Origin: Escherichia phage vB_EcoM_WL-3
DNA length: 64,000 nucleotides
Sequence record: MT968995.1
Strand: one strand, 5' to 3'
Below are positions 20,932 to 26,818 of the stretch, in pieces. Numbering within the stretch: the stretch's first letter is position 1; the number at the start of each line of letters is the position of its first letter. The notes under the pieces were generated by a model. It had not been told where the DNA came from. It worked only from the letters and a program-made list of their open reading frames with translations, and ran no database searches. Position numbers and translations under genes: made by a program.

Positions 20932-21005
20932 TGGTTCTTCGTCTCATTTAATTTTGCTTTGCATTTATAACACATGTCTGTTCCACTTGAAATAAACATA
21001 TTTCC

Positions 21006-21563
21006 TCACTTTGAAATCATAGTTGGAATGACAGAATCAAGATAAGTCTTTAGCGCAATAGCTTCGTCTTTGGTAAATGTGACAATATGTGATCGAAAAT
21101 CATCAATTTGACGAATAGTTAAGACATCTCCCTCTTCATAACATTTTGATACATTTAAAAGAGTTTCATCATTCTGATTGCAATCGTTAGTAATAATAGC
21201 ATTGCAATTTTTAAACCATTTTAAACCATGTTTTCTTTCGTTAGAATAATAAAAATATTTAATTTTAGTTATAAAATTATCCCAATTATTAATTGATAAG
21301 CATATTGACTCGCTTTCAATGTTAAATCCTGGGCATGAAGAATAAAAATGAATTTTGTGCTCATCATTGATGCTTACTATTTTATCAGTATAAGGATATT
21401 CAATTTGGGTTAAATGAATGATTTCACTAGGCGTAAAATATAGCATATCGTCTTCTTGCGTCAAACGATACATATTATTTACTTTTTCTATAGCCAATTC
21501 GCCAAAAAGTGGACTAACTTCTAATACTAATCGTTTCATATTGATTCTCTTCGACTCACTCAC
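21006..21563 (-). CDS. Hypothetical protein
   Basis: 185 aa; GTG start with AAAGGAG SD (or ATG 21539). Confidence 0.55.
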   Translation of the reverse strand: MSESKRINMKRLVLEVSPLFGELAIEKVNNMYRLTQEDDMLYFTPSEIIHLTQIEYPYTDKIVSINDEHKIHFYSSCPGFNIESESICLSINNWDNFITKIKYFYYSNERKHGLKWFKNCNAIITNDCNQNDETLLNVSKCYEEGDVLTIRQIDDFRSHIVTFTKDEAIALKTYLDSVIPTMISK

Positions 21564-21565
21564 AA

Positions 21566-21670
21566 TTACATACTCCTTTGAATAATATCAATAATGTTGT
21601 TCACCAGATTATAAGTAAACATCGGATGATAATATTGAATCATCACATACACAACAAACAAAACTTTCAT
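21566..21670 (-). CDS. Hypothetical hydrophobic micro-protein (34 aa)
   Basis: Hand translation MKVLFVVYVMIQYYHPMFTYNLVNNIIDIIQRSM; GAGGAG SD; just downstream of an early promoter. Confidence 0.3.
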   Translation of the reverse strand: MKVLFVVYVMIQYYHPMFTYNLVNNIIDIIQRSM

Positions 21671-21695
21671 TCTCTTCTCCTCGGCAGATGGCAAG

Positions 21696-21731
21696 ATTAC
21701 TATACCATAACCTTGCCAACTTGTAAACCAT
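21696..21731 (-). promoter_or_regulatory. T4-type early promoter (-35 GTTTACA, -10 TATAGT)
   Basis: Minus-strand GTTTAC (21723-21728 rc), TATAGT (21699-21704 rc), 18-nt spacer. Confidence 0.45.
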
Positions 21732-21904
21732 TAAATGACGTTTTCAATAAAATTCTGAAGCTTTGTGTGAGCATCAACCATGATTTTCATTTCTTCCTTT
21801 GCGAAAGCTGTACCTCTTTCACGAGAAGAATACTCATAGTCAGAAACTGCATTAGCGTATTCTTCAATTAGCTTCATTAAAAACATCTGCTTTTCAGTTT
21901 TCAT
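21731..21904 (-). CDS. Hypothetical small protein (57 aa, below track cutoff)
   Basis: Hand translation MKTEKQMFLMKLIEEYANAVSDYEYSSRERGTAFAKEEMKIMVDAHTKLQNFIENVI; the plus-strand track ORF 21578-21871 is antisense to it. Confidence 0.35.
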   Translation of the reverse strand: MKTEKQMFLMKLIEEYANAVSDYEYSSRERGTAFAKEEMKIMVDAHTKLQNFIENVI

Positions 21905-22088
21905 TATTCCACCTAATCATTTCAAGATATTGAACTAACTTAGCTTTGGATTTATCCAAATCCTTTTTAGCTGCTTCTATACCATCGTATGAATATCCTT
22001 CACAATGCTCAACTGCCAATTGGTATGAATCTATTTCAATATCACGTGCTAATTTAATGATTTTTTCAAACTGTTCACGTGTTAGCAT
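21894..22088 (-). CDS. Hypothetical small protein
   Basis: ORF track 64 aa. Confidence 0.5.
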   Translation of the reverse strand: MLTREQFEKIIKLARDIEIDSYQLAVEHCEGYSYDGIEAAKKDLDKSKAKLVQYLEMIRWNNEN

Positions 22089-22090
22089 AC

Positions 22091-22294
22091 TTAAACTCTC
22101 GTATTATGATCGATAATTTCATCAAGAAACATATCTAAAGCTTCTACAGCATTATCAACTTTAGCTTCAAGTTCTTCAGCGCCTTTATTTGCAATGCCTG
22201 CCGAAAACCAAGCAAAGTCACTAAGTTCCTCATCTGCTTTGCGAATTAAAGCTACCAATTCTTTAATTTTATCTGCTTGTTCGATACTAATCAT
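22091..22294 (-). CDS. Hypothetical small acidic protein
   Basis: Track ORF trimmed to ATG overlapping the upstream stop (ATGA). Confidence 0.5.
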   Translation of the reverse strand: MISIEQADKIKELVALIRKADEELSDFAWFSAGIANKGAEELEAKVDNAVEALDMFLDEIIDHNTRV

Positions 22295-22482
22295 TATTCC
22301 ACCACATATGAAAGAGAGAATATTGCACACGCCATATGAGTTGCAGCTTCATCACACATATCATAACGTTTCTTAAGAAGTTCTACAAGTTCTTCACTTG
22401 TAACTTCATCCATGTCGACGAAAAAATCACCATTAATGATGACGTAAATATTTCCTTCTTGATTAAGTGCTTCAATTTTCAT
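22294..22482 (-). CDS. Hypothetical small protein
   Basis: Start moved to ATG 22482 with GAGGAG SD; early promoter upstream. Confidence 0.5.
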
Positions 22483-22508
22483 GATGTTCTCCTCTTTATC
22501 CGATGGTT

Positions 22509-22543
22509 GTATAGTATCACAACTCAAATGGAAAGTAAACCGG
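22509..22543 (-). promoter_or_regulatory. T4-type early promoter (-35 GTTTAC, -10 TACTAT) with flanking inverted repeat
   Basis: Minus-strand GTTTAC (22535-22540 rc), TACTAT (22512-22517 rc); GTTGT/ACAAC inverted repeat around -10. Confidence 0.45.
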
Positions 22544-22556
22544 TAAAATGAAAAAA

Positions 22557-22572
22557 GTCTCCCGAAGGAGAC
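22557..22572 (-). terminator. GC hairpin GTCTCC-CGAA-GGAGAC
   Basis: Stem-loop after the stop of ORF 22578-22964. Confidence 0.4.
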
Positions 22573-22577
22573 TAATG

Positions 22578-22964
22578 TTATTCGAGGGAAAGAAGATATT
22601 TGCTCTGGTAAAACATTCCAGTAATATCATCTATCGTGCTTTGAATGGCTGGAGGCATTTCTTTATAAATGCTGTTAGATTGGTCTAGTATGCGATCAAT
22701 CATTTTAATTGTGTCGGTAGGAAGTTTACTGGCATCTGGAATTGAAGGCGTGTATTTTCTACCAGAATACCCCAAATATTGCTCACCAAATTTATCAATC
22801 AAATCTGGCAACTCAGAGAAAATAAAATCGTATGCTTTGTGTCTAGCATAACTTTTAGTTTCAAAATGCGCAGAATGAAAATAAGCTTGTGCAGCCATTA
22901 ATAAACCTAAGTATTCATCTGCCTTTGAAGGTTTTCCACTTTGTGAAAAGTCGCTGAATTTCAT
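22578..22964 (-). CDS. Hypothetical protein adjacent to rI
   Basis: ORF track 128 aa. Confidence 0.6.
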
Positions 22965-23254
22965 TCAGTCTCCAATTTAATGTTCATAATTCTAGCGTAT
23001 GATTGTGCCATCTCCGCGCCTCGCTCTATACATTCAAAATCAGAAGAGCACGGGTCATTTTTATAGGTCGTTCGCATAAAACTATAGAACTGTTTAGATG
23101 ATTCTACGCTTTTATTTTCAAAAAGCGTATAAACATGTCTAATACCAGATTCCATAAATTTATCAAAATGAGGATCGACATTCGCTTCAATCGGCGGAGA
23201 TAAAACAAACGCTAATCCTAGCATGGCGAATAGTGCCGCTGCTTTTAAGGCCAT
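22961..23254 (-). CDS. rI: Lysis-inhibition regulator rI (membrane/periplasmic)
   Basis: 97 aa; N-terminal signal-anchor MALKAAALFAMLGLAFVLSPPIEA; matches recalled T4 rI. Confidence 0.88.
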   Translation of the reverse strand: MALKAAALFAMLGLAFVLSPPIEANVDPHFDKFMESGIRHVYTLFENKSVESSKQFYSFMRTTYKNDPCSSDFECIERGAEMAQSYARIMNIKLETE

Positions 23255-23266
23255 AAAGGCCTCCTA

Positions 23267-23479
23267 TCATTTTTGTCCTGTATTTACTTTATGCCGATGC
23301 ACGGCCTTAACTTTATCAAGGTATTTTTCAAAATTTCGCAATCTAGTATAGTCTGCCGGAGATTGGTTGAGTGATACTTCTCGACGCAAAGCTGAAATGA
23401 TATTTCCAACTTCCCTACGAATTTCATCTAATTGAAGAACAGTAAGATTGCGAAGTTGCTTTTCAGTTAATTGTAGCAT
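23267..23479 (-). CDS. Hypothetical small protein
   Basis: ORF track 70 aa. Confidence 0.55.
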
Positions 23480-23521
23480 ATATACCCCTTTAGTTAGATA
23501 AACCTATTTATAACTTTTGCA

Positions 23522-24103
23522 CTAACCGAGCTTTTTAGTTAATTCATTCCAATGTTTTCTACACAAAGAAACATAAATTTCATCACCAATACAGATTTGA
23601 TTACCTTCTTTAACTGGTGTTCCATCTTCCATTAATCGAGCTGTCATAATCGCTTTTTTACCGCAATGACAAACTGCTTTTAGTTCAATAAGTTTATCTG
23701 CAATCGCCAAAAGTTCCTTAGAACCTTCAAATAATTTTCCAGCGAAATCAGTCCTTAGACCATAAGCCATAACAGGAACATTATATGTATCGACAATTCG
23801 GCTTAATTGATGCACCTGTTCAGTTTTTAAAAACTGTGCTTCATCTACAAATACACAATGAATATCTTTTTGTGCTTCAGCCCATTTATAGAACTCAAAA
23901 ATATTCATATCATCTGTAATAATATTCGCTTCCTGCTTAATTCCAATGCGAGAAACGACTTCACAGACAGAATCGCGAGTATCAATAGCAGGCTTAAGAA
24001 CTAATACACTCATTCCACGTTCTTTATAGTTATGGGCGGCAGTCAAAAGAGAAGCAGATTTTCCAGCATTCATTGCTGCATAAGTAAAAATTAAACTCGC
24101 CAT
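23522..24103 (-). CDS. tk: Thymidine kinase
   Basis: 193 aa; P-loop AAMNAGKS, Cys cluster CHCGKK...C; matches recalled T4 Tk. Confidence 0.93.
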   Translation of the reverse strand: MASLIFTYAAMNAGKSASLLTAAHNYKERGMSVLVLKPAIDTRDSVCEVVSRIGIKQEANIITDDMNIFEFYKWAEAQKDIHCVFVDEAQFLKTEQVHQLSRIVDTYNVPVMAYGLRTDFAGKLFEGSKELLAIADKLIELKAVCHCGKKAIMTARLMEDGTPVKEGNQICIGDEIYVSLCRKHWNELTKKLG

Positions 24104-24104
24104 C

Positions 24105-24293
24105 TTAGTCCTTAGTTAAATTTTCTAAATATGTTTCTAAATCATTTTCAGCTTTATCGATAGATTTTACTAATTCGTAGTATGTTTCAGCATCTCCATA
24201 ATCCGAAGCCAATTCAAAAGATAAATCTCGTTCTAAACTAATAATTTCGCTGATTAAAAATCGTATTTCATTCTTTTGTTCGCAAGTAATCAT
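24105..24293 (-). CDS. Hypothetical small acidic protein
   Basis: ORF track 62 aa. Confidence 0.5.
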   Translation of the reverse strand: MITCEQKNEIRFLISEIISLERDLSFELASDYGDAETYYELVKSIDKAENDLETYLENLTKD

Positions 24294-24496
24294 AAGGAAT
24301 TTATATAATCAATAAGTTCTTGTTCTTTATCGTCGAAATCTTTACATAGTTCTTCGTATTCGTCGGTATTAAAAGGACCGCATTCATCGCAAACTTTTTC
24401 CAATTCACTATTTTTATCCATAACTTCGTGAATAAGAGAAAACAGTCTGTCTTTTTGTTCTTTACTCAGACTCATAACCATGTAACCTTTAAGCAA
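24290..24496 (-). CDS. Hypothetical small acidic protein
   Basis: ORF track 68 aa. Confidence 0.5.
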   Translation of the reverse strand: MLKGYMVMSLSKEQKDRLFSLIHEVMDKNSELEKVCDECGPFNTDEYEELCKDFDDKEQELIDYINSL

Positions 24497-24684
24497 TATT
24501 CTTCTACATGTTGTTTACGACCTTTCTTATCAATAAAGGTATATTCAACGAATGTTCCAATGTAGTCTTTATCGACATCATGTGGACTATTAATTGGGCA
24601 TTTAGTACGGCAAATGCGTTCCCATTGACGAATAATTTCCGCTTTATTTTTAGGGTCAAACGGATGCGGGTAATGTACTTTCAT
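24472..24684 (-). CDS. Hypothetical small protein
   Basis: ORF track 70 aa. Confidence 0.5.
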   Translation of the reverse strand: MKVHYPHPFDPKNKAEIIRQWERICRTKCPINSPHDVDKDYIGTFVEYTFIDKKGRKQHVEEYCLKVTWL

Positions 24685-25135
24685 AATCCACCACTATTAA
24701 ATCAATATCAGGAGTAAACATGTCGATTAATTTAGAAACCTTATCCCAATCACCGCCAGCAATACCACAACCTATGCGTGGAATGTAAATTACTGGTTTA
24801 AACAAAAGGGTCTCTGCCTGTAGATTTAATTCTATCATGCAGTTTACTAAAGCACCATAATCAAGATTAGGACCCGGTTCGTATTGTGTATACAGGTTAT
24901 AGCATATACCAAATCCTGTAGGATTATGTTTAAAAACAATAGACATATCGCCTAATTTATCACGAGAACCGTACTCGGTAGTGGTTTTATCTATTTCTAA
25001 AATTTTAGGATAGGCCCTTGCTAATTGACCCGCTACACCTGAACCCATAGTATGAAAACAGTTGCACCCGTGCGCAATAATATTACCTTGAAGAAATAGG
25101 GCGACAATATCGCCCTTGATATATTTTACAATCAT
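24656..25135 (-). CDS. Macrodomain protein (TARG1/OARD1-like, putative ADP-ribose hydrolase)
   Basis: 159 aa; motifs KGDIVALF, AHGCNCFHTMGSGVAGQLA and PRIGCGIAGGDWDKV resemble TARG1-type macrodomains. Confidence 0.65.
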   Translation of the reverse strand: MIVKYIKGDIVALFLQGNIIAHGCNCFHTMGSGVAGQLARAYPKILEIDKTTTEYGSRDKLGDMSIVFKHNPTGFGICYNLYTQYEPGPNLDYGALVNCMIELNLQAETLLFKPVIYIPRIGCGIAGGDWDKVSKLIDMFTPDIDLIVVDYESTLPASV

Positions 25136-25473
25136 CTAGTACTCAATCCTCGATTATAAGAATCTACCAAACGGTCAACCATTGAATGACAAGCGGCTTT
25201 ATCTTTCTCCTCCGCAACTGAACATTCTAAGGTATTCCACTTTTTAGCATATCGTTTTAATAAAGTATCGTTCTTGTATCTACTTGATTTATCTCTTTCT
25301 CCGTCTTTATATGCATATATTAATTTCTGCGCAAATTCAGCTTGGCATGCTTTATTTTTCCCACAATAATCCGCGGCAGTACGGTTTACATACTCTCTAA
25401 TTTCAGTGTATGATGTATTTGCTAACGCAGAAAATGAAATTAATCCTATACATAAAACCAAAATTTTAGTCAT
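25132..25473 (-). CDS. Hypothetical secreted/periplasmic protein (signal peptide)
   Basis: 113 aa; N-terminal MTKILVLCIGLISFSALA; four Cys. Confidence 0.55.
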   Translation of the reverse strand: MTKILVLCIGLISFSALANTSYTEIREYVNRTAADYCGKNKACQAEFAQKLIYAYKDGERDKSSRYKNDTLLKRYAKKWNTLECSVAEEKDKAACHSMVDRLVDSYNRGLSTR

Positions 25474-26011
25474 TTACTATTTCCAAAAGTTTATTATTTT
25501 TAAGGTAATTAGCCTTTTCTAGGACTTCAGAAGCATATTTAGAACCAGCTTTAACATTCCATCCCGAATTATAAGAGGATATTGCTTTTCTTATATCGCC
25601 CTTATGTATATTTAACCAATAAGAAAGTTCAATGTACGCCCAGGAAGCTGAATTGGACCGTTTATTCAACATTCTTTTTATTTCAGCATCGGTCATATTA
25701 TAACCAAGTTCCTTGACTCTCGCTCGCATAGTAGGCAAATAATTTTGGAACATTCCATAGGCATGATGCTTTGGTTTAGATTTTAAATTAACTCCGCCAG
25801 AGCTTTCTTGCCATAAAATAGCAGCCATTATATGACCTAATCCGCTCTTGTGGATATTTTTGTGTGTTTTATATTTTCCATCCTTAGAAAATTGTTCCCC
25901 GAATTGATACGCGTAACGCATGTTATCGAGTTGGACATTACTGAAAGTATGCTCGGAGCTATGTGCCATCATTGAAATGGCCAATAGACCAGCGAGTAGT
26001 GCTTTTCTCAT
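25466..26011 (-). CDS. Secreted lytic-transglycosylase-like protein
   Basis: 181 aa; signal peptide; SLT-like motif AAILWQESSGG. Confidence 0.65.
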   Translation of the reverse strand: MRKALLAGLLAISMMAHSSEHTFSNVQLDNMRYAYQFGEQFSKDGKYKTHKNIHKSGLGHIMAAILWQESSGGVNLKSKPKHHAYGMFQNYLPTMRARVKELGYNMTDAEIKRMLNKRSNSASWAYIELSYWLNIHKGDIRKAISSYNSGWNVKAGSKYASEVLEKANYLKNNKLLEIVND

Positions 26012-26018
26012 GCTTACC

Positions 26019-26480
26019 TCATTGAGTTTTAATTACTGCTTTAGAAGCCTTTCCTGGTAAACGACGACTATTGATAATTGCCATCCTGCATTGAAGCGAC
26101 GGGTCTTTGAACTTCGCATTAGGTTTACAAACTGTAAATCCAAGCCAAAGATTTCCATCTGTGATTTCTAAACGTCCAGGACGGTATTCAACCCCATCAA
26201 TAAAATCCTCATCAATGTCAGGACGCGGAGGCATACTCAGGAATTCATTAACTTCTAAAACATGGTCTTTTATTTTGTGGAATAATTCAAAAACATATGT
26301 CTCATCAATCTCCCGTTGAATTGCACGATCAAGAAGATGCTGAGAATATTTTAGATGAAACGATGAGACCCCTGCTGCTTTTGATGCCTCACGAATCTCA
26401 TTGTTAATTTGACGAAACTCCGACTCAAAGTGACGACGAAGCTTATTTCGACGGATAAAAACTTCTGTATTGATAGTCAT
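26019..26480 (-). CDS. regB: Site-specific endoribonuclease RegB
   Basis: 153 aa; length and position match T4 RegB. Confidence 0.8.
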   Translation of the reverse strand: MTINTEVFIRRNKLRRHFESEFRQINNEIREASKAAGVSSFHLKYSQHLLDRAIQREIDETYVFELFHKIKDHVLEVNEFLSMPPRPDIDEDFIDGVEYRPGRLEITDGNLWLGFTVCKPNAKFKDPSLQCRMAIINSRRLPGKASKAVIKTQ

Positions 26481-26504
26481 GTTGTTCTCCTCTTAACTGA
26501 TAGA

Positions 26505-26540
26505 AAAATTATACCACAGTCAAGAGGAAAAGTAAACAGT
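26505..26540 (-). promoter_or_regulatory. T4-type early promoter (-35 GTTTAC, -10 TATAAT)
   Basis: Minus-strand GTTTAC (26532-26537 rc), TGGTATAAT (26508-26513 rc), 18-nt spacer, upstream of regB. Confidence 0.5.
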
Positions 26541-26818
26541 TATTCTTTAAATCTAATCAATTTATTCATAGACTTTGAAACTTCTGCACGAACCTCATGT
26601 AGATTTTTGAGCTGTTCAAGACGCTGCTCATAGTAAGCAATTTCATCTTCTTCGAGACAGTCCTGTGAATCTTCTTTAAGATACCGTGCATAGTCCTGGA
26701 AAGCGTTACGGACTACTTCCTGGAAGTCATCAAGACTTTGAATTTTCTTAGGAGCAGCAGACACACGACGAGGGGCAGTATAATACTCATAACCAAACCC
26801 TGCGCTTAATTGAGCCAT
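26540..26818 (-). CDS. Hypothetical acidic protein
   Basis: Track ORF trimmed to ATG overlapping the upstream stop (TAATG). Confidence 0.5.

What the first reader, a model, noticed from the sequence alone, without database searches (positions are those of the whole stretch)
24656..25135. TARG1-like macrodomain protein in the tk-vs accessory block
The 159-aa ORF carries motifs I associate with the TARG1/OARD1 macrodomain subfamily (KGDIVALF, AHGCNCFHTMGSGVAGQLA, PRIGCGIAGGDWDKV). This is the same fold family as the DarG antitoxin macrodomain, which removes ADP-ribose from DNA. In a phage that also uses ADP-ribosylation, a free macrodomain hydrolase could either counter host ADP-ribosylating defence toxins such as DarT or tune phage ADP-ribosyltransferase activity. 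It sits in a block of tiny acidic ORFs typical of anti-host factors.
Basis: partly seen in the sequence, partly recalled or inferred. Interest (0 to 1): 0.6.

Follow-up and report, generated by a model that had tools for sequence, protein, structure and literature searches.

The report
Phage macrodomain that counters DarT defence
This gene is tk.4 (adfM) of a T4-like coliphage, a small ADP-ribose-removing enzyme that a 2025 study showed T4 needs to escape the bacterial DarTG2 defence, so the finding is real but already known.

Summary
The 159-aa ORF exists at 24656..25135 on the minus strand, with all three quoted motifs. It is tk.4 of a Tequatrovirus, lying between vs and tk.3. It is a confident macrodomain (Pfam Macro; AF2 pLDDT 92.5). 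Its best structural matches are TARG1, Bt_1257, Poa1p, DarG and SCO6735, the ALC1/TARG1-like class.

The TARG1 catalytic dyad is absent. K84 is replaced by Gln84, which is invariant in 259 of 259 relatives, and D125 by Ala126. The active site matches SCO6735, a Gln-type enzyme shown to remove ADP-ribose from thymidine in DNA.

T4 tk.4 is 58% identical. A 2025 preprint named it adfM because its knockout sensitises T4 to DarTG2. The best explanation is therefore hydrolysis of DarT2-made thymidine-ADP-ribose on phage DNA. That activity is inferred, not shown, for this allele.

Two caveats apply:
- The same family contains Adpp (39% identical), a proven ADP-ribose-1''-phosphate phosphatase that works with NARP1. 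The residues needed for that activity are also conserved here.
- tk.4 is a swapped cassette. It is 57% identical to T4's protein inside 94-100% identical flanks, yet 93% identical to that of a Dhakavirus whose flanks are 44-76% identical.

Interest is modest.

The parts
24656..25135 (-). tk.4 / adfM coding sequence: 159 aa plus stop, a single macrodomain
   Evidence: ORF and translation. Pfam Macro. AF2 pLDDT 92.5. Annotated tk.4 macro domain-containing protein in a phage 99.4% identical at the nucleotide level.
25109..25117 (-). K7-G8-D9 motif. G8 is near-invariant and position 9 is D or N. By analogy with other macrodomains it is the adenine-contacting Asp.
   Evidence: Residue counts in 259 relatives. 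The role is inferred from general macrodomain knowledge and was not tested.
25019..25075 (-). Loop 1, AHGCNCFHTMGSGVAGQLA. It holds His22 (codon 25070-25072) and Asn25 (codon 25061-25063).
   Evidence: H22 is present in 250/257 and N25 in 257/257 relatives. They align with SCO6735 H24/N27 and DarG N22, and with Adpp H24/N27, whose Ala mutants lose function.
24881..24898 (-). NLYTQY motif. Gln84 (codon 24884-24886) occupies the position of TARG1 Lys84, DarG Lys80 and SCO6735 Gln85.
   Evidence: Profile and multiple alignments. Q84 259/259, Y82 259/259, N80 258/259.
24746..24781 (-). Phosphate-binding loop PRIGCGIAGGDW. Ala126 (codon 24758-24760) sits where TARG1 has Asp125.
   Evidence: Alignment to TARG1 GCGLDRLQW and SCO6735 GCGLAGGTW. 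Position 126 is A, G or S in all 259 relatives and never D.
24989..24991 (-). Asp49 codon. It is invariant in the Tk.4/Adpp family but absent from SCO6735, TARG1 and DarG. Its role is unknown.
   Evidence: D49 259/259; alignments.
24650..25050 (.). Hypervariable allele cassette. It covers the gene from about codon 30 to its end and into the tk.3 overlap.
   Evidence: Nucleotide identity to T4 is 47-72% here, 80% in the next 100-nt bin (25000-25099), and mostly 92-100% in the neighbouring genes. Protein identity table.
25132..25151 (-). Translation start region: Shine-Dalgarno GAGGA (25147-25151) and ATGA, where the vs stop codon overlaps the tk.4 start codon (25132-25135)
   Evidence: Sequence read directly; ORF coordinates.
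24656..24684 (-). 29-nt overlap of the tk.4 3' end with the start of tk.3 (24472..24684). In T4 the overlap is 4 nt.
   Evidence: ORF coordinates and T4 annotation.
25132..26536 (-). Upstream genes in the same orientation, vs, vs.1 and regB, tightly packed or overlapping, with a promoter-like site at 26508..26536. This is context for early co-transcription.
   Evidence: ORFs. Promoter-like TTTACT-17-TATAAT with a TG extension, a consensus match only. PHROG hits for vs and vs.1.

Best explanation
The gene is the tk.4/adfM orthologue of a T4-like coliphage. It is a stand-alone ALC1/TARG1-class macrodomain made before replication, probably from the regB-vs.1-vs-tk.4 transcript.

Proposed mechanism: host DarT2 ADP-ribosylates thymidines in single-stranded phage DNA. 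The protein binds the ADP-ribose and hydrolyses the C1''-N3 glycosidic bond. This releases ADP-ribose, restores the thymine, and lets replication proceed.

Catalysis does not use the TARG1/DarG lysine. As in SCO6735, Gln84 is held by Asn25 and positions the distal ribose. The GCGIAGG loop holds the diphosphate, and a water molecule does the chemistry.

Shown: the fold, the class, the residue pattern, positional orthology with T4 tk.4, and (in the literature) that T4 lacking tk.4 becomes DarTG2-sensitive.

Inferred: that this 58%-identical allele does the same, that the effect is enzymatic, and the residue roles.
For: Fold and class:
- Pfam Macro.
- AF2 model with pLDDT 92.5.
- Foldseek top hits are TARG1, Bt_1257, Poa1p, DarG and SCO6735, with TM 0.69-0.76 normalised by the query.

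Orthology:
- Same position between vs and tk.3 as in T4.
- 58% identity to T4 Tk.4, E=1e-70.

Function of the orthologue:
- A transposon screen found tk.4 as the single significant hit on a DarTG2 host.
- A clean knockout sensitised T4 to DarTG2.
- T-even phages resist DarTG2 independently of AdfA and AdfN.

Chemistry:
- SCO6735 has Gln at the Lys position, cleaves dT-ADPr DNA faster than DarG or TARG1, and is dead as Q85A or Q85E.
- Tk.4 keeps H22, N25, Q84 and the GCGxAGGxW loop.
- Every tested member of this class (TARG1, DarG, SCO6735) hydrolyses T- or U-linked ADP-ribose.

Correlation: DarTG2-sensitive T5 has no family member. A profile search of all T5 frames found nothing at E<=10, while the window control scored 1.2e-68.
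Against: - No biochemistry exists for any Tk.4-type protein. The T4 preprint infers hydrolysis from structure only.
- This allele is only 58% identical to the tested one.
- It lacks the extended mobile loop and Lys34 that the SCO6735 study links to DNA binding.
- Among characterised proteins, the second closest after T4 Tk.4 is Adpp, a proven ADP-ribose-1''-phosphate phosphatase (39% identity). Adpp scores higher than Tk.4 against DarG models.
- Sequence therefore cannot separate the two activities.
Confidence: 0.7

Rival explanations
1. It is mainly an ADP-ribose-1''-phosphate phosphatase like Adpp or Poa1p. It would convert the ADPR-1''-P made by RES-domain NADases (aRES) into ADP-ribose. 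This is what the GenBank label 'phosphatase / A1pp motif' implies.
For: - Adpp of Vibrio phage Gary is 39% identical, E=1e-26, and falls in the same clade and the same PHROG 335.
- Adpp was shown to dephosphorylate ADPR-1''-P and to need H24 and N27. Both are conserved here as H22 and N25.
- One NARP1-associated Macro protein, from Acinetobacter phage phiAbaA1, carries the Tk.4-type HGCNCF and YTQY motifs.
- Yeast Poa1p matches at E=1.5e-9.
Against: - Adpp only helps together with NARP1, which uses the ADP-ribose produced.
- tk.4 is flanked by vs, vs.1, tk.3 and tk.2, not by Adps or Namat.
- The table of NARP1-associated Macro proteins lists no Escherichia, Klebsiella or Salmonella phage.
- The only phenotype known for a Tk.4-type gene is against DarTG2.
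- The two activities are not mutually exclusive. Both replace a leaving group on ribose C1''.
Confidence: 0.12
2. It neutralises DarT2 mainly by binding and blocking the toxin (interaction-inhibition), not by repairing DNA.
For: Catalytically dead SCO6735 Q85A, DarG K80A and TARG1 K84A all inhibit DarT in vitro, and SCO6735 does so most strongly. The allele-specific, fast-changing surface of Tk.4 would fit co-evolution with a protein partner.
Against: The ADP-ribose-binding and catalytic residues are invariant across 259 relatives, including stand-alone bacterial homologues with no DarT nearby. That argues for selection on enzymatic activity. The protein also lacks the DarG C-terminal DarT-binding domain, being 159 aa and single-domain.
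Confidence: 0.06
3. It acts on another ADP-ribose conjugate, such as uracil-ADP-ribose on RNA, Glu/Asp-linked protein ADP-ribose or O-acetyl-ADP-ribose. This allele may be tuned to a substrate or toxin variant different from that of T4's allele.
For: SCO6735, TARG1 and DarG also cleave U-ADPr on RNA, and SCO6735 and TARG1 cleave Glu/Asp-linked protein ADPr. The cassette-like allele exchange suggests functional diversification.
Against: All active-site positions are the same in the two alleles. No defence system producing such conjugates is known to be countered by a Tk.4-type protein.
Confidence: 0.08
4. It reverses or tunes the phage's own Alt, ModA and ModB ADP-ribosylation of host proteins.
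For: T4-like phages encode three ADP-ribosyltransferases. This is established knowledge and was not checked in this window.
Against: Those enzymes modify arginine. No ALC1/TARG1-class macrodomain is known to cleave arginine-linked ADP-ribose; the tested members act on Glu/Asp esters and on T/U bases. tk.4 is non-essential without DarTG2 and was the single significant hit on the DarTG2 host.
Confidence: 0.04

Closest known systems
T4 Tk.4 / AdfM (anti-DarT factor Macrodomain; bioRxiv 10.1101/2025.11.20.689424)
   Same: Same locus between vs and tk.3 and the same single-domain architecture. 58% identity, with all family-invariant residues shared.
   Different: The central and C-terminal parts are strongly diverged: 47-72% nucleotide identity inside near-identical flanks. 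This protein is 4 aa longer and overlaps tk.3 by 29 nt. This allele has never been tested.
SCO6735 / Bt_1257 subclass of ALC1-like macrodomains (PMC9411070)
   Same: Gln at the TARG1-Lys84 position, His and Asn in loop 1, and the GCG[IL]AGGxW phosphate loop. Both are stand-alone proteins. SCO6735 is a proven thymidine-ADPr DNA hydrolase and rescues cells from DarT.
   Different: 27-30% identity. Tk.4 lacks the 5-6 residue longer 'mobile loop' and the Lys34 equivalent, which is Ser32 here. It has the family-specific invariants D49 and Y82.
Adpp, the NARP1-associated Macro phosphatase of Vibrio phage Gary (bioRxiv 10.64898/2026.01.28.702374)
   Same: 39% identity, same clade and same PHROG. The functional residues H24 and N27 are conserved, and the Gln is conserved.
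   Different: Adpp sits inside a NARP1 operon and acts on the small molecule ADPR-1''-P. tk.4 has no NARP1 neighbours. Adpp has a longer loop after the Gln and Arg at the SCO6735 Lys34 position.
DarG antitoxin macrodomain and PhiKZ gp104 'AdfM' (PMC13309987)
   Same: Same fold and class, and the same proposed biological job of undoing DarT2.
   Different: A different lineage, about 21% identical. DarG and gp104 use the FPTK[KD] lysine (K80 / K78). gp104 matches Mtb DarG at E=9e-25 and the PADLOC DarG model at 133 bits, against 28 bits for this protein. DarG also has a C-terminal DarT-binding domain. Two unrelated macro lineages now share the name AdfM.
Human TARG1 / OARD1
   Same: Best Foldseek match (E=4.5e-10, TM 0.73 normalised by the query and 0.82 by the target), short loop after the catalytic position, and MG[AS]G loop 1.
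   Different: The catalytic Lys84/Asp125 dyad is replaced by Gln84/Ala126. About 23% identity.
Yeast Poa1p (ADP-ribose-1''-phosphate phosphatase)
   Same: Very similar loop 1 (HSCNCNGSWGGGIA against HGCNCFHTMGSGVA), and a Foldseek hit at E=1.8e-9.
   Different: About 24% identity. The sequence alignment breaks up in the middle of the protein. Poa1p acts in the tRNA-splicing by-product pathway, which is absent here.

Membership tests
Macro domain (Pfam PF01661) | Score above the curated gathering threshold, and a macro fold | tested here: met
   33.1 bits against a cut-off of 22. AF2 pLDDT 92.5 with macrodomain structures as top Foldseek hits.
ALC1/TARG1-like macrodomain class | Closest structures and sequences are TARG1, DarG, SCO6735, Bt_1257 and ALC1 rather than MacroD or PARG types | tested here: met
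   The top 18 Foldseek hits are all TARG1, Bt_1257, Poa1p, DarG or SCO6735. In the profile search, Bt_1257 scores 8e-19, TARG1 1e-16 and SCO6735 1e-14, while MacroD-type Af1521 scores only about 0.6.
TARG1/OARD1 proper | Catalytic Lys84-Asp125 dyad | tested here: not met
   The aligned positions are Gln84 and Ala126. Among 259 relatives none has Lys at 84 or Asp at 126.
DarG antitoxin | Catalytic Lys (Taq K80) in an FPTKK motif | tested here: not met
   NLYTQY aligns with FPTKKH, placing Gln at the Lys position.
DarG antitoxin | Two-domain protein of about 340 aa that reaches the curated equivalog score | tested here: not met
   159 aa, macro domain only. NCBIfam antitoxin_DarG gives 27.8 bits against a cut-off of 250.
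DarG antitoxin | Encoded next to a darT toxin gene | tested here: not met
   The neighbours are vs, vs.1, regB, tk.3, tk.2, tk.1 and tk. The one chromosomal bacterial homologue examined (P0096) is also not next to DarT. The other protein looked up (P0107) sits on a T4-like phage contig.
AdfM, T4 Tk.4 type | Positional orthologue of T4 tk.4 with clear full-length homology | tested here: met
   Same slot between vs and tk.3. 58% identity over 155 aa, E=1e-70.
AdfM, T4 Tk.4 type | Required for phage growth on DarTG2-expressing hosts | not testable with these tools
   Shown only for the T4 allele.
AdfM, PhiKZ gp104 type (DarG2-like) | Close similarity to the DarG2 macrodomain, including the catalytic Lys | tested here: not met
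   BLASTP against gp104 finds only 27% identity over 33 aa, E=0.001. PADLOC DarG gives 27.7 bits here against 132.9 for gp104.
SCO6735/Bt_1257 subclass | Gln at the catalytic-Lys position with supporting His, Asn and the Gly-rich phosphate loop | tested here: met
   Q84, H22, N25 and GCGIAGGDW align with Q85, H24, N27 and GCGLAGGTW.
SCO6735/Bt_1257 subclass | Mobile loop five residues longer, and the DNA-contacting Lys34 | tested here: not met
   SCO6735 and Bt_1257 carry a 5-6 residue insertion after the Gln relative to Tk.4. Lys34 aligns with Ser32.
SCO6735/Bt_1257 subclass | Hydrolysis of thymidine-linked ADP-ribose on DNA | not testable with these tools
   This is a biochemical assay.
Adpp (NARP1-AP phosphatase) | Homologous Macro protein with the functional His24 and Asn27 | tested here: met
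   39% identity, E=1e-26. H22 and N25 are conserved. The H24A and N27A constructs are listed, and mutations in Adpp abolish the anti-aRES effect.
Adpp (NARP1-AP phosphatase) | Encoded within two genes of the NARP1 genes Adps and Namat | tested here: not met
   No such neighbours are present. No coliphage appears in the authors' table. The rest of the genome outside this window was not scanned for NARP1.
Adpp (NARP1-AP phosphatase) | ADPR-1''-phosphate phosphatase activity | not testable with these tools
   This is a biochemical assay.

The most novel reading that the evidence does not exclude
Tk.4/AdfM and Adpp may be one lineage of Gln-type 'ADP-ribose C1'' hydrolases'. A single active site would remove either thymine (repairing DarT2 damage) or phosphate (salvaging the aRES product). 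On this reading, the horizontally swapped tk.4 cassettes are specificity variants, matched to different DarT2 or other ADP-ribose-based defences or selected to escape host recognition. The allele in this window would then protect against a different set of systems than T4's allele does.
Probability: 0.25. Interest if true: 0.6.

Novelty: already known. Interest (0 to 1): 0.33.

Why it matters
DarTG systems stop phages by ADP-ribosylating their DNA. T-even phages carry layered counter-measures: AdfA and AdfN against DarTG1, and Tk.4/AdfM against DarTG2. Recognising this gene helps predict host range on DarTG2-carrying strains, which matters when choosing therapeutic T4-like phages.

Three points here go beyond the published work:
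- The T4-type AdfM cannot work like DarG or TARG1, because it has no catalytic lysine.
- It is homologous to the Adpp phosphatase, so annotation by similarity cannot separate the two counter-defence roles.
- The gene is exchanged as a cassette between phage genera.

All three are testable. They affect how the roughly 2,800 phage homologues in GenBank records (5% of them) should be annotated.

Tried and rejected
- **TARG1-type mechanism:** rejected, because Lys84 and Asp125 are replaced by Gln and Ala.
- **Membership of the DarG family, or identity with PhiKZ AdfM:** rejected on score, motif, length and gene context.
- **Origin as an orphan half of a DarTG pair:** one chromosomal bacterial homologue (Pelagimonas) is a stand-alone gene among housekeeping genes with no DarT. 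A second protein looked up turned out to sit on a T4-like phage contig. The sample is too small to settle the origin.
- **Hairpin in the conserved 5' end of the gene (25098-25116):** it scored as terminator-like, but the region does not fold better than shuffled sequence, z=-1.26. Treated as chance.
- **Promoter scan:** fewer sigma-70-like sites than in shuffles (11 against 15.4). Only the site upstream of regB is worth noting.
- **Literature searches:** I looked for other reports on Tk.4 and found only the HIDEN-SEQ preprint.
- **Not done:** I did not scan the genome outside this window for NARP1 genes.

Full report
**Observation.** The window holds an ATG-to-stop ORF of 159 codons at 24656..25135 on the minus strand. 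The start codon overlaps the stop codon of the upstream gene vs in an ATGA, and a GAGGA Shine-Dalgarno lies 11 nt upstream. The 3' end overlaps the start of tk.3 by 29 nt. The gene order on the minus strand is regB, vs.1, vs, this gene, tk.3, tk.2, tk.1, tk, rI.1 and rI, exactly as in T4. The DNA is 99-99.8% identical to several Tequatrovirus genomes. There the gene is annotated tk.4 'macro domain-containing protein' or 'phosphatase', and one phage encodes a 100% identical protein. The one loose point is the 'tiny acidic ORFs': tk.1 and tk.2 are acidic (pI 4.2-4.3), but tk.3 and vs are basic.

**Fold and class.** The protein passes the Pfam Macro threshold (33.1 bits against 22) and matches PHROG 335 at 1.6e-71. 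An AlphaFold2 model built on 40 homologues is confident (pLDDT 92.5, pTM 0.88). Its best Foldseek matches in the PDB are TARG1, Bt_1257, Poa1p, Thermus and Mycobacterium DarG, and SCO6735, with E from 4.5e-10 to 6e-8 and TM 0.69-0.76 normalised by the query. Coronavirus and MacroD-type domains come later. A family profile gives the same picture by sequence: Bt_1257 8e-19, TARG1 1e-16, SCO6735 1e-14, Poa1p 7e-14, Mtb DarG 6e-11 and Taq DarG 2e-8.

**Catalytic residues.** In the profile alignment to TARG1, in a 12-sequence alignment and in a 24-sequence alignment, TARG1 Lys84, Taq DarG Lys80 and PhiKZ gp104 Lys78 all align with Gln84 of this protein (NLYTQY against LITKKR and FPTKKH). TARG1 Asp125 aligns with Ala126 (GCGIAGGDW against GCGLDRLQW). 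I tabulated 259 family members: this protein, the listed word-index hits and the 150 best representatives of an exhaustive profile search. Gln84 is present in 259/259, Asn25 in 257/257, His22 in 250/257, Asn80 in 258/259, and Tyr82 and Asp49 in 259/259. None has Lys at 84 or Asp at 126.

The same Gln occurs in SCO6735 (Gln85) and Bt_1257, which also share His, Asn and the GCGLAGGxW loop. SCO6735 is an experimentally proven thymidine-ADP-ribose DNA hydrolase. It outperforms DarG and TARG1, is inactivated by Q85A, Q85E and N27S, and rescues cells from DarT (PMC9411070). Tk.4 differs from SCO6735 in two ways. It lacks the 5-6 residue longer mobile loop, and it has Ser32 in place of Lys34.

**What is known about the gene.** A November 2025 preprint ran a transposon screen of T4 on a DarTG2-expressing host. 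tk.4 was the single significant hit, and a clean knockout was sensitised to DarTG2. The authors renamed the gene adfM and proposed, from structural similarity only, that it removes ADP-ribose from DNA (bioRxiv 10.1101/2025.11.20.689424). This fills the gap left by the AdfN study, which found T-even phages resistant to DarTG2 independently of AdfA and AdfN.

A 2026 Cell Reports paper uses the same name, AdfM, for PhiKZ gp104, and that protein does remove DarT2-made ADP-ribose from DNA in vitro (PMC13309987). However, gp104 is a true DarG-like protein: E=9e-25 to Mtb DarG, Lys78 present, and 133 bits to the PADLOC DarG model. It barely aligns with Tk.4. Two different macrodomain lineages therefore share one name.

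**This allele and the T4 allele.** The window protein is only 58% identical to T4 Tk.4. The neighbouring proteins are 94-100% identical, apart from the small tk.1 at 87%. At the nucleotide level, identity to T4 drops to 47-72% between about 24650 and 25000. It is 80% in the next 100-nt bin and mostly 92-100% in the neighbouring genes.

The opposite pattern holds for the Dhakavirus phage dhaeg. Its Tk.4 is 93% identical to the window protein, while its RegB, Vs.1, Vs, Tk.3 and Tk are 44-76% identical. tk.4 is thus a cassette exchanged between genera, as expected for a gene under arms-race selection. All active-site residues are the same in both alleles. About 312 phage records carry this allele at 90% identity or more.

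**A second characterised relative.** A January 2026 preprint shows that a Macro protein inside some phage NARP1 operons, Adpp of Vibrio phage Gary, dephosphorylates ADP-ribose-1''-phosphate, the product of the RES-domain defence aRES. The H24A and N27A mutants lose the counter-defence (bioRxiv 10.64898/2026.01.28.702374). Adpp is 39% identical to the window protein (E=1e-26) and keeps the Gln. It falls with Tk.4 in one clade, which is sister to SCO6735/Bt_1257 and distinct from TARG1 and from DarG plus gp104 in a rough neighbour-joining tree. It also belongs to the same PHROG.

One NARP1-associated protein, from Acinetobacter phage phiAbaA1, even carries Tk.4-type motifs. Adpp scores higher against DarG models than T4 AdfM does. 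Homology alone therefore cannot decide between the two activities.

Context does favour one of them. tk.4 has no NARP1 neighbours, and the authors' table lists no coliphage. Both reactions replace a leaving group on ribose C1'', phosphate in one case and thymine N3 in the other. One active site might do both, but this is my inference.

**Other checks.**
- DarTG2-sensitive phage T5 has no family member. A profile search of every T5 reading frame over its unique sequence gave nothing at E<=10, while the same search of the window found only this gene, at 1.2e-68.
- A bacterial homologue in Pelagimonas is a stand-alone chromosomal gene with no DarT nearby.
- The family is large: 1,033 cluster representatives at E<=1e-30 and 17,277 at E<=1e-3. 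Homologues occur in 2,777 of 50,697 phage records.

**Most likely mechanism (confidence about 0.7).** The protein is made early, with regB, vs.1 and vs. It binds ADP-ribose attached by DarT2 to thymidines of single-stranded phage DNA and hydrolyses the glycosidic bond by the lysine-independent, Gln-assisted route described for SCO6735. The fold, class, residue pattern and orthology are shown here. The DarTG2 phenotype is shown for the T4 allele in the literature. Enzymatic repair, the residue roles and the transfer to this allele are inferred.

**Rivals.**
- An Adpp-like phosphatase role, 0.12, possibly as a side activity.
- Another ADP-ribose conjugate or an allele-specific target, 0.08.
- Stoichiometric inhibition of DarT2, 0.06. 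Dead SCO6735 can do this in vitro.
- Tuning of the phage's own arginine-specific transferases, 0.04. No enzyme of this class is known to do that chemistry.

**Novelty.** The gene, its fold and its anti-DarTG2 role are already in the literature and in GenBank annotation, so the finding is already known and of modest interest. The points worth passing on are the absence of the catalytic lysine in the T4-type AdfM, its kinship with Adpp, the double use of the name AdfM, and the cassette-like exchange of alleles.

Noticed in passing
window 24650-25050, compared with 21000-26740: tk.4 is a swapped cassette. It is 47-72% identical to T4 at the nucleotide level while the neighbouring genes are mostly 92-100% identical. 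Its protein is 93% identical to that of a Dhakavirus whose neighbouring proteins are only 44-76% identical.
   Followed up: partly
window 24105-24293 (tk.1) and 24290-24496 (tk.2): tk.1 and tk.2 both match phrog_653, so they are tandem paralogues. Both are small and acidic (pI 4.15 and 4.29) and have no known function.
   Followed up: no
window 24989-24991 (Asp49), 24890-24892 (Tyr82), 24896-24898 (Asn80): Asp49 and Tyr82 are invariant in all 259 Tk.4/Adpp-family sequences but absent from SCO6735, TARG1 and DarG. Their role in the active site is unexplained.
   Followed up: no
window 25098-25116: A perfect 8-bp-stem hairpin (AGGGCGAT ATT GTCGCCCT) lies in the 5' part of tk.4 that is 100% conserved with T4. 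It was flagged as terminator-like, but the region as a whole does not fold better than shuffles, z=-1.26.
   Followed up: partly
window 21500-21600, 22100-22300, 24200-24400: There are further, milder dips in nucleotide identity to T4 (74-86%) in the mobD-side small ORFs and in tk.1/tk.2. They suggest other variable mini-cassettes in this accessory block.
   Followed up: no
window 25466-26011 (vs.1): Vs.1 gives weak hits to lytic tail protein and endolysin PHROGs and is annotated as an SLT transglycosylase-domain protein in a close relative. It has an N-terminal signal-like sequence.
   Followed up: no
window 25132-25473 (vs): The HIDEN-SEQ preprint reports that the adjacent gene vs is the most strongly depleted T4 gene in minimal medium. 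Two neighbouring 'accessory' genes are thus conditionally essential under different conditions.
   Followed up: no
literature, not the window: The name AdfM is used for two non-orthologous macrodomain lineages: T4 Tk.4 (Gln-type) and PhiKZ gp104 (DarG-like, Lys-type). PHROG 335, labelled 'phosphatase', lumps both together with Adpp.
   Followed up: yes
L009 (phage T5) 6447-8094: T5 lacks any Tk.4-like macrodomain but encodes two Sir2-like proteins (T5.102 and T5.105) in its early region.
   Followed up: no
hit H24, PV654520.1: A record labelled Pseudomonas phage vB_PSGBLB0006 (142 kb) encodes a Tk.4 97.5% identical to this coliphage allele. This looks like a mislabelled or contaminated T4-like assembly.
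   Followed up: no
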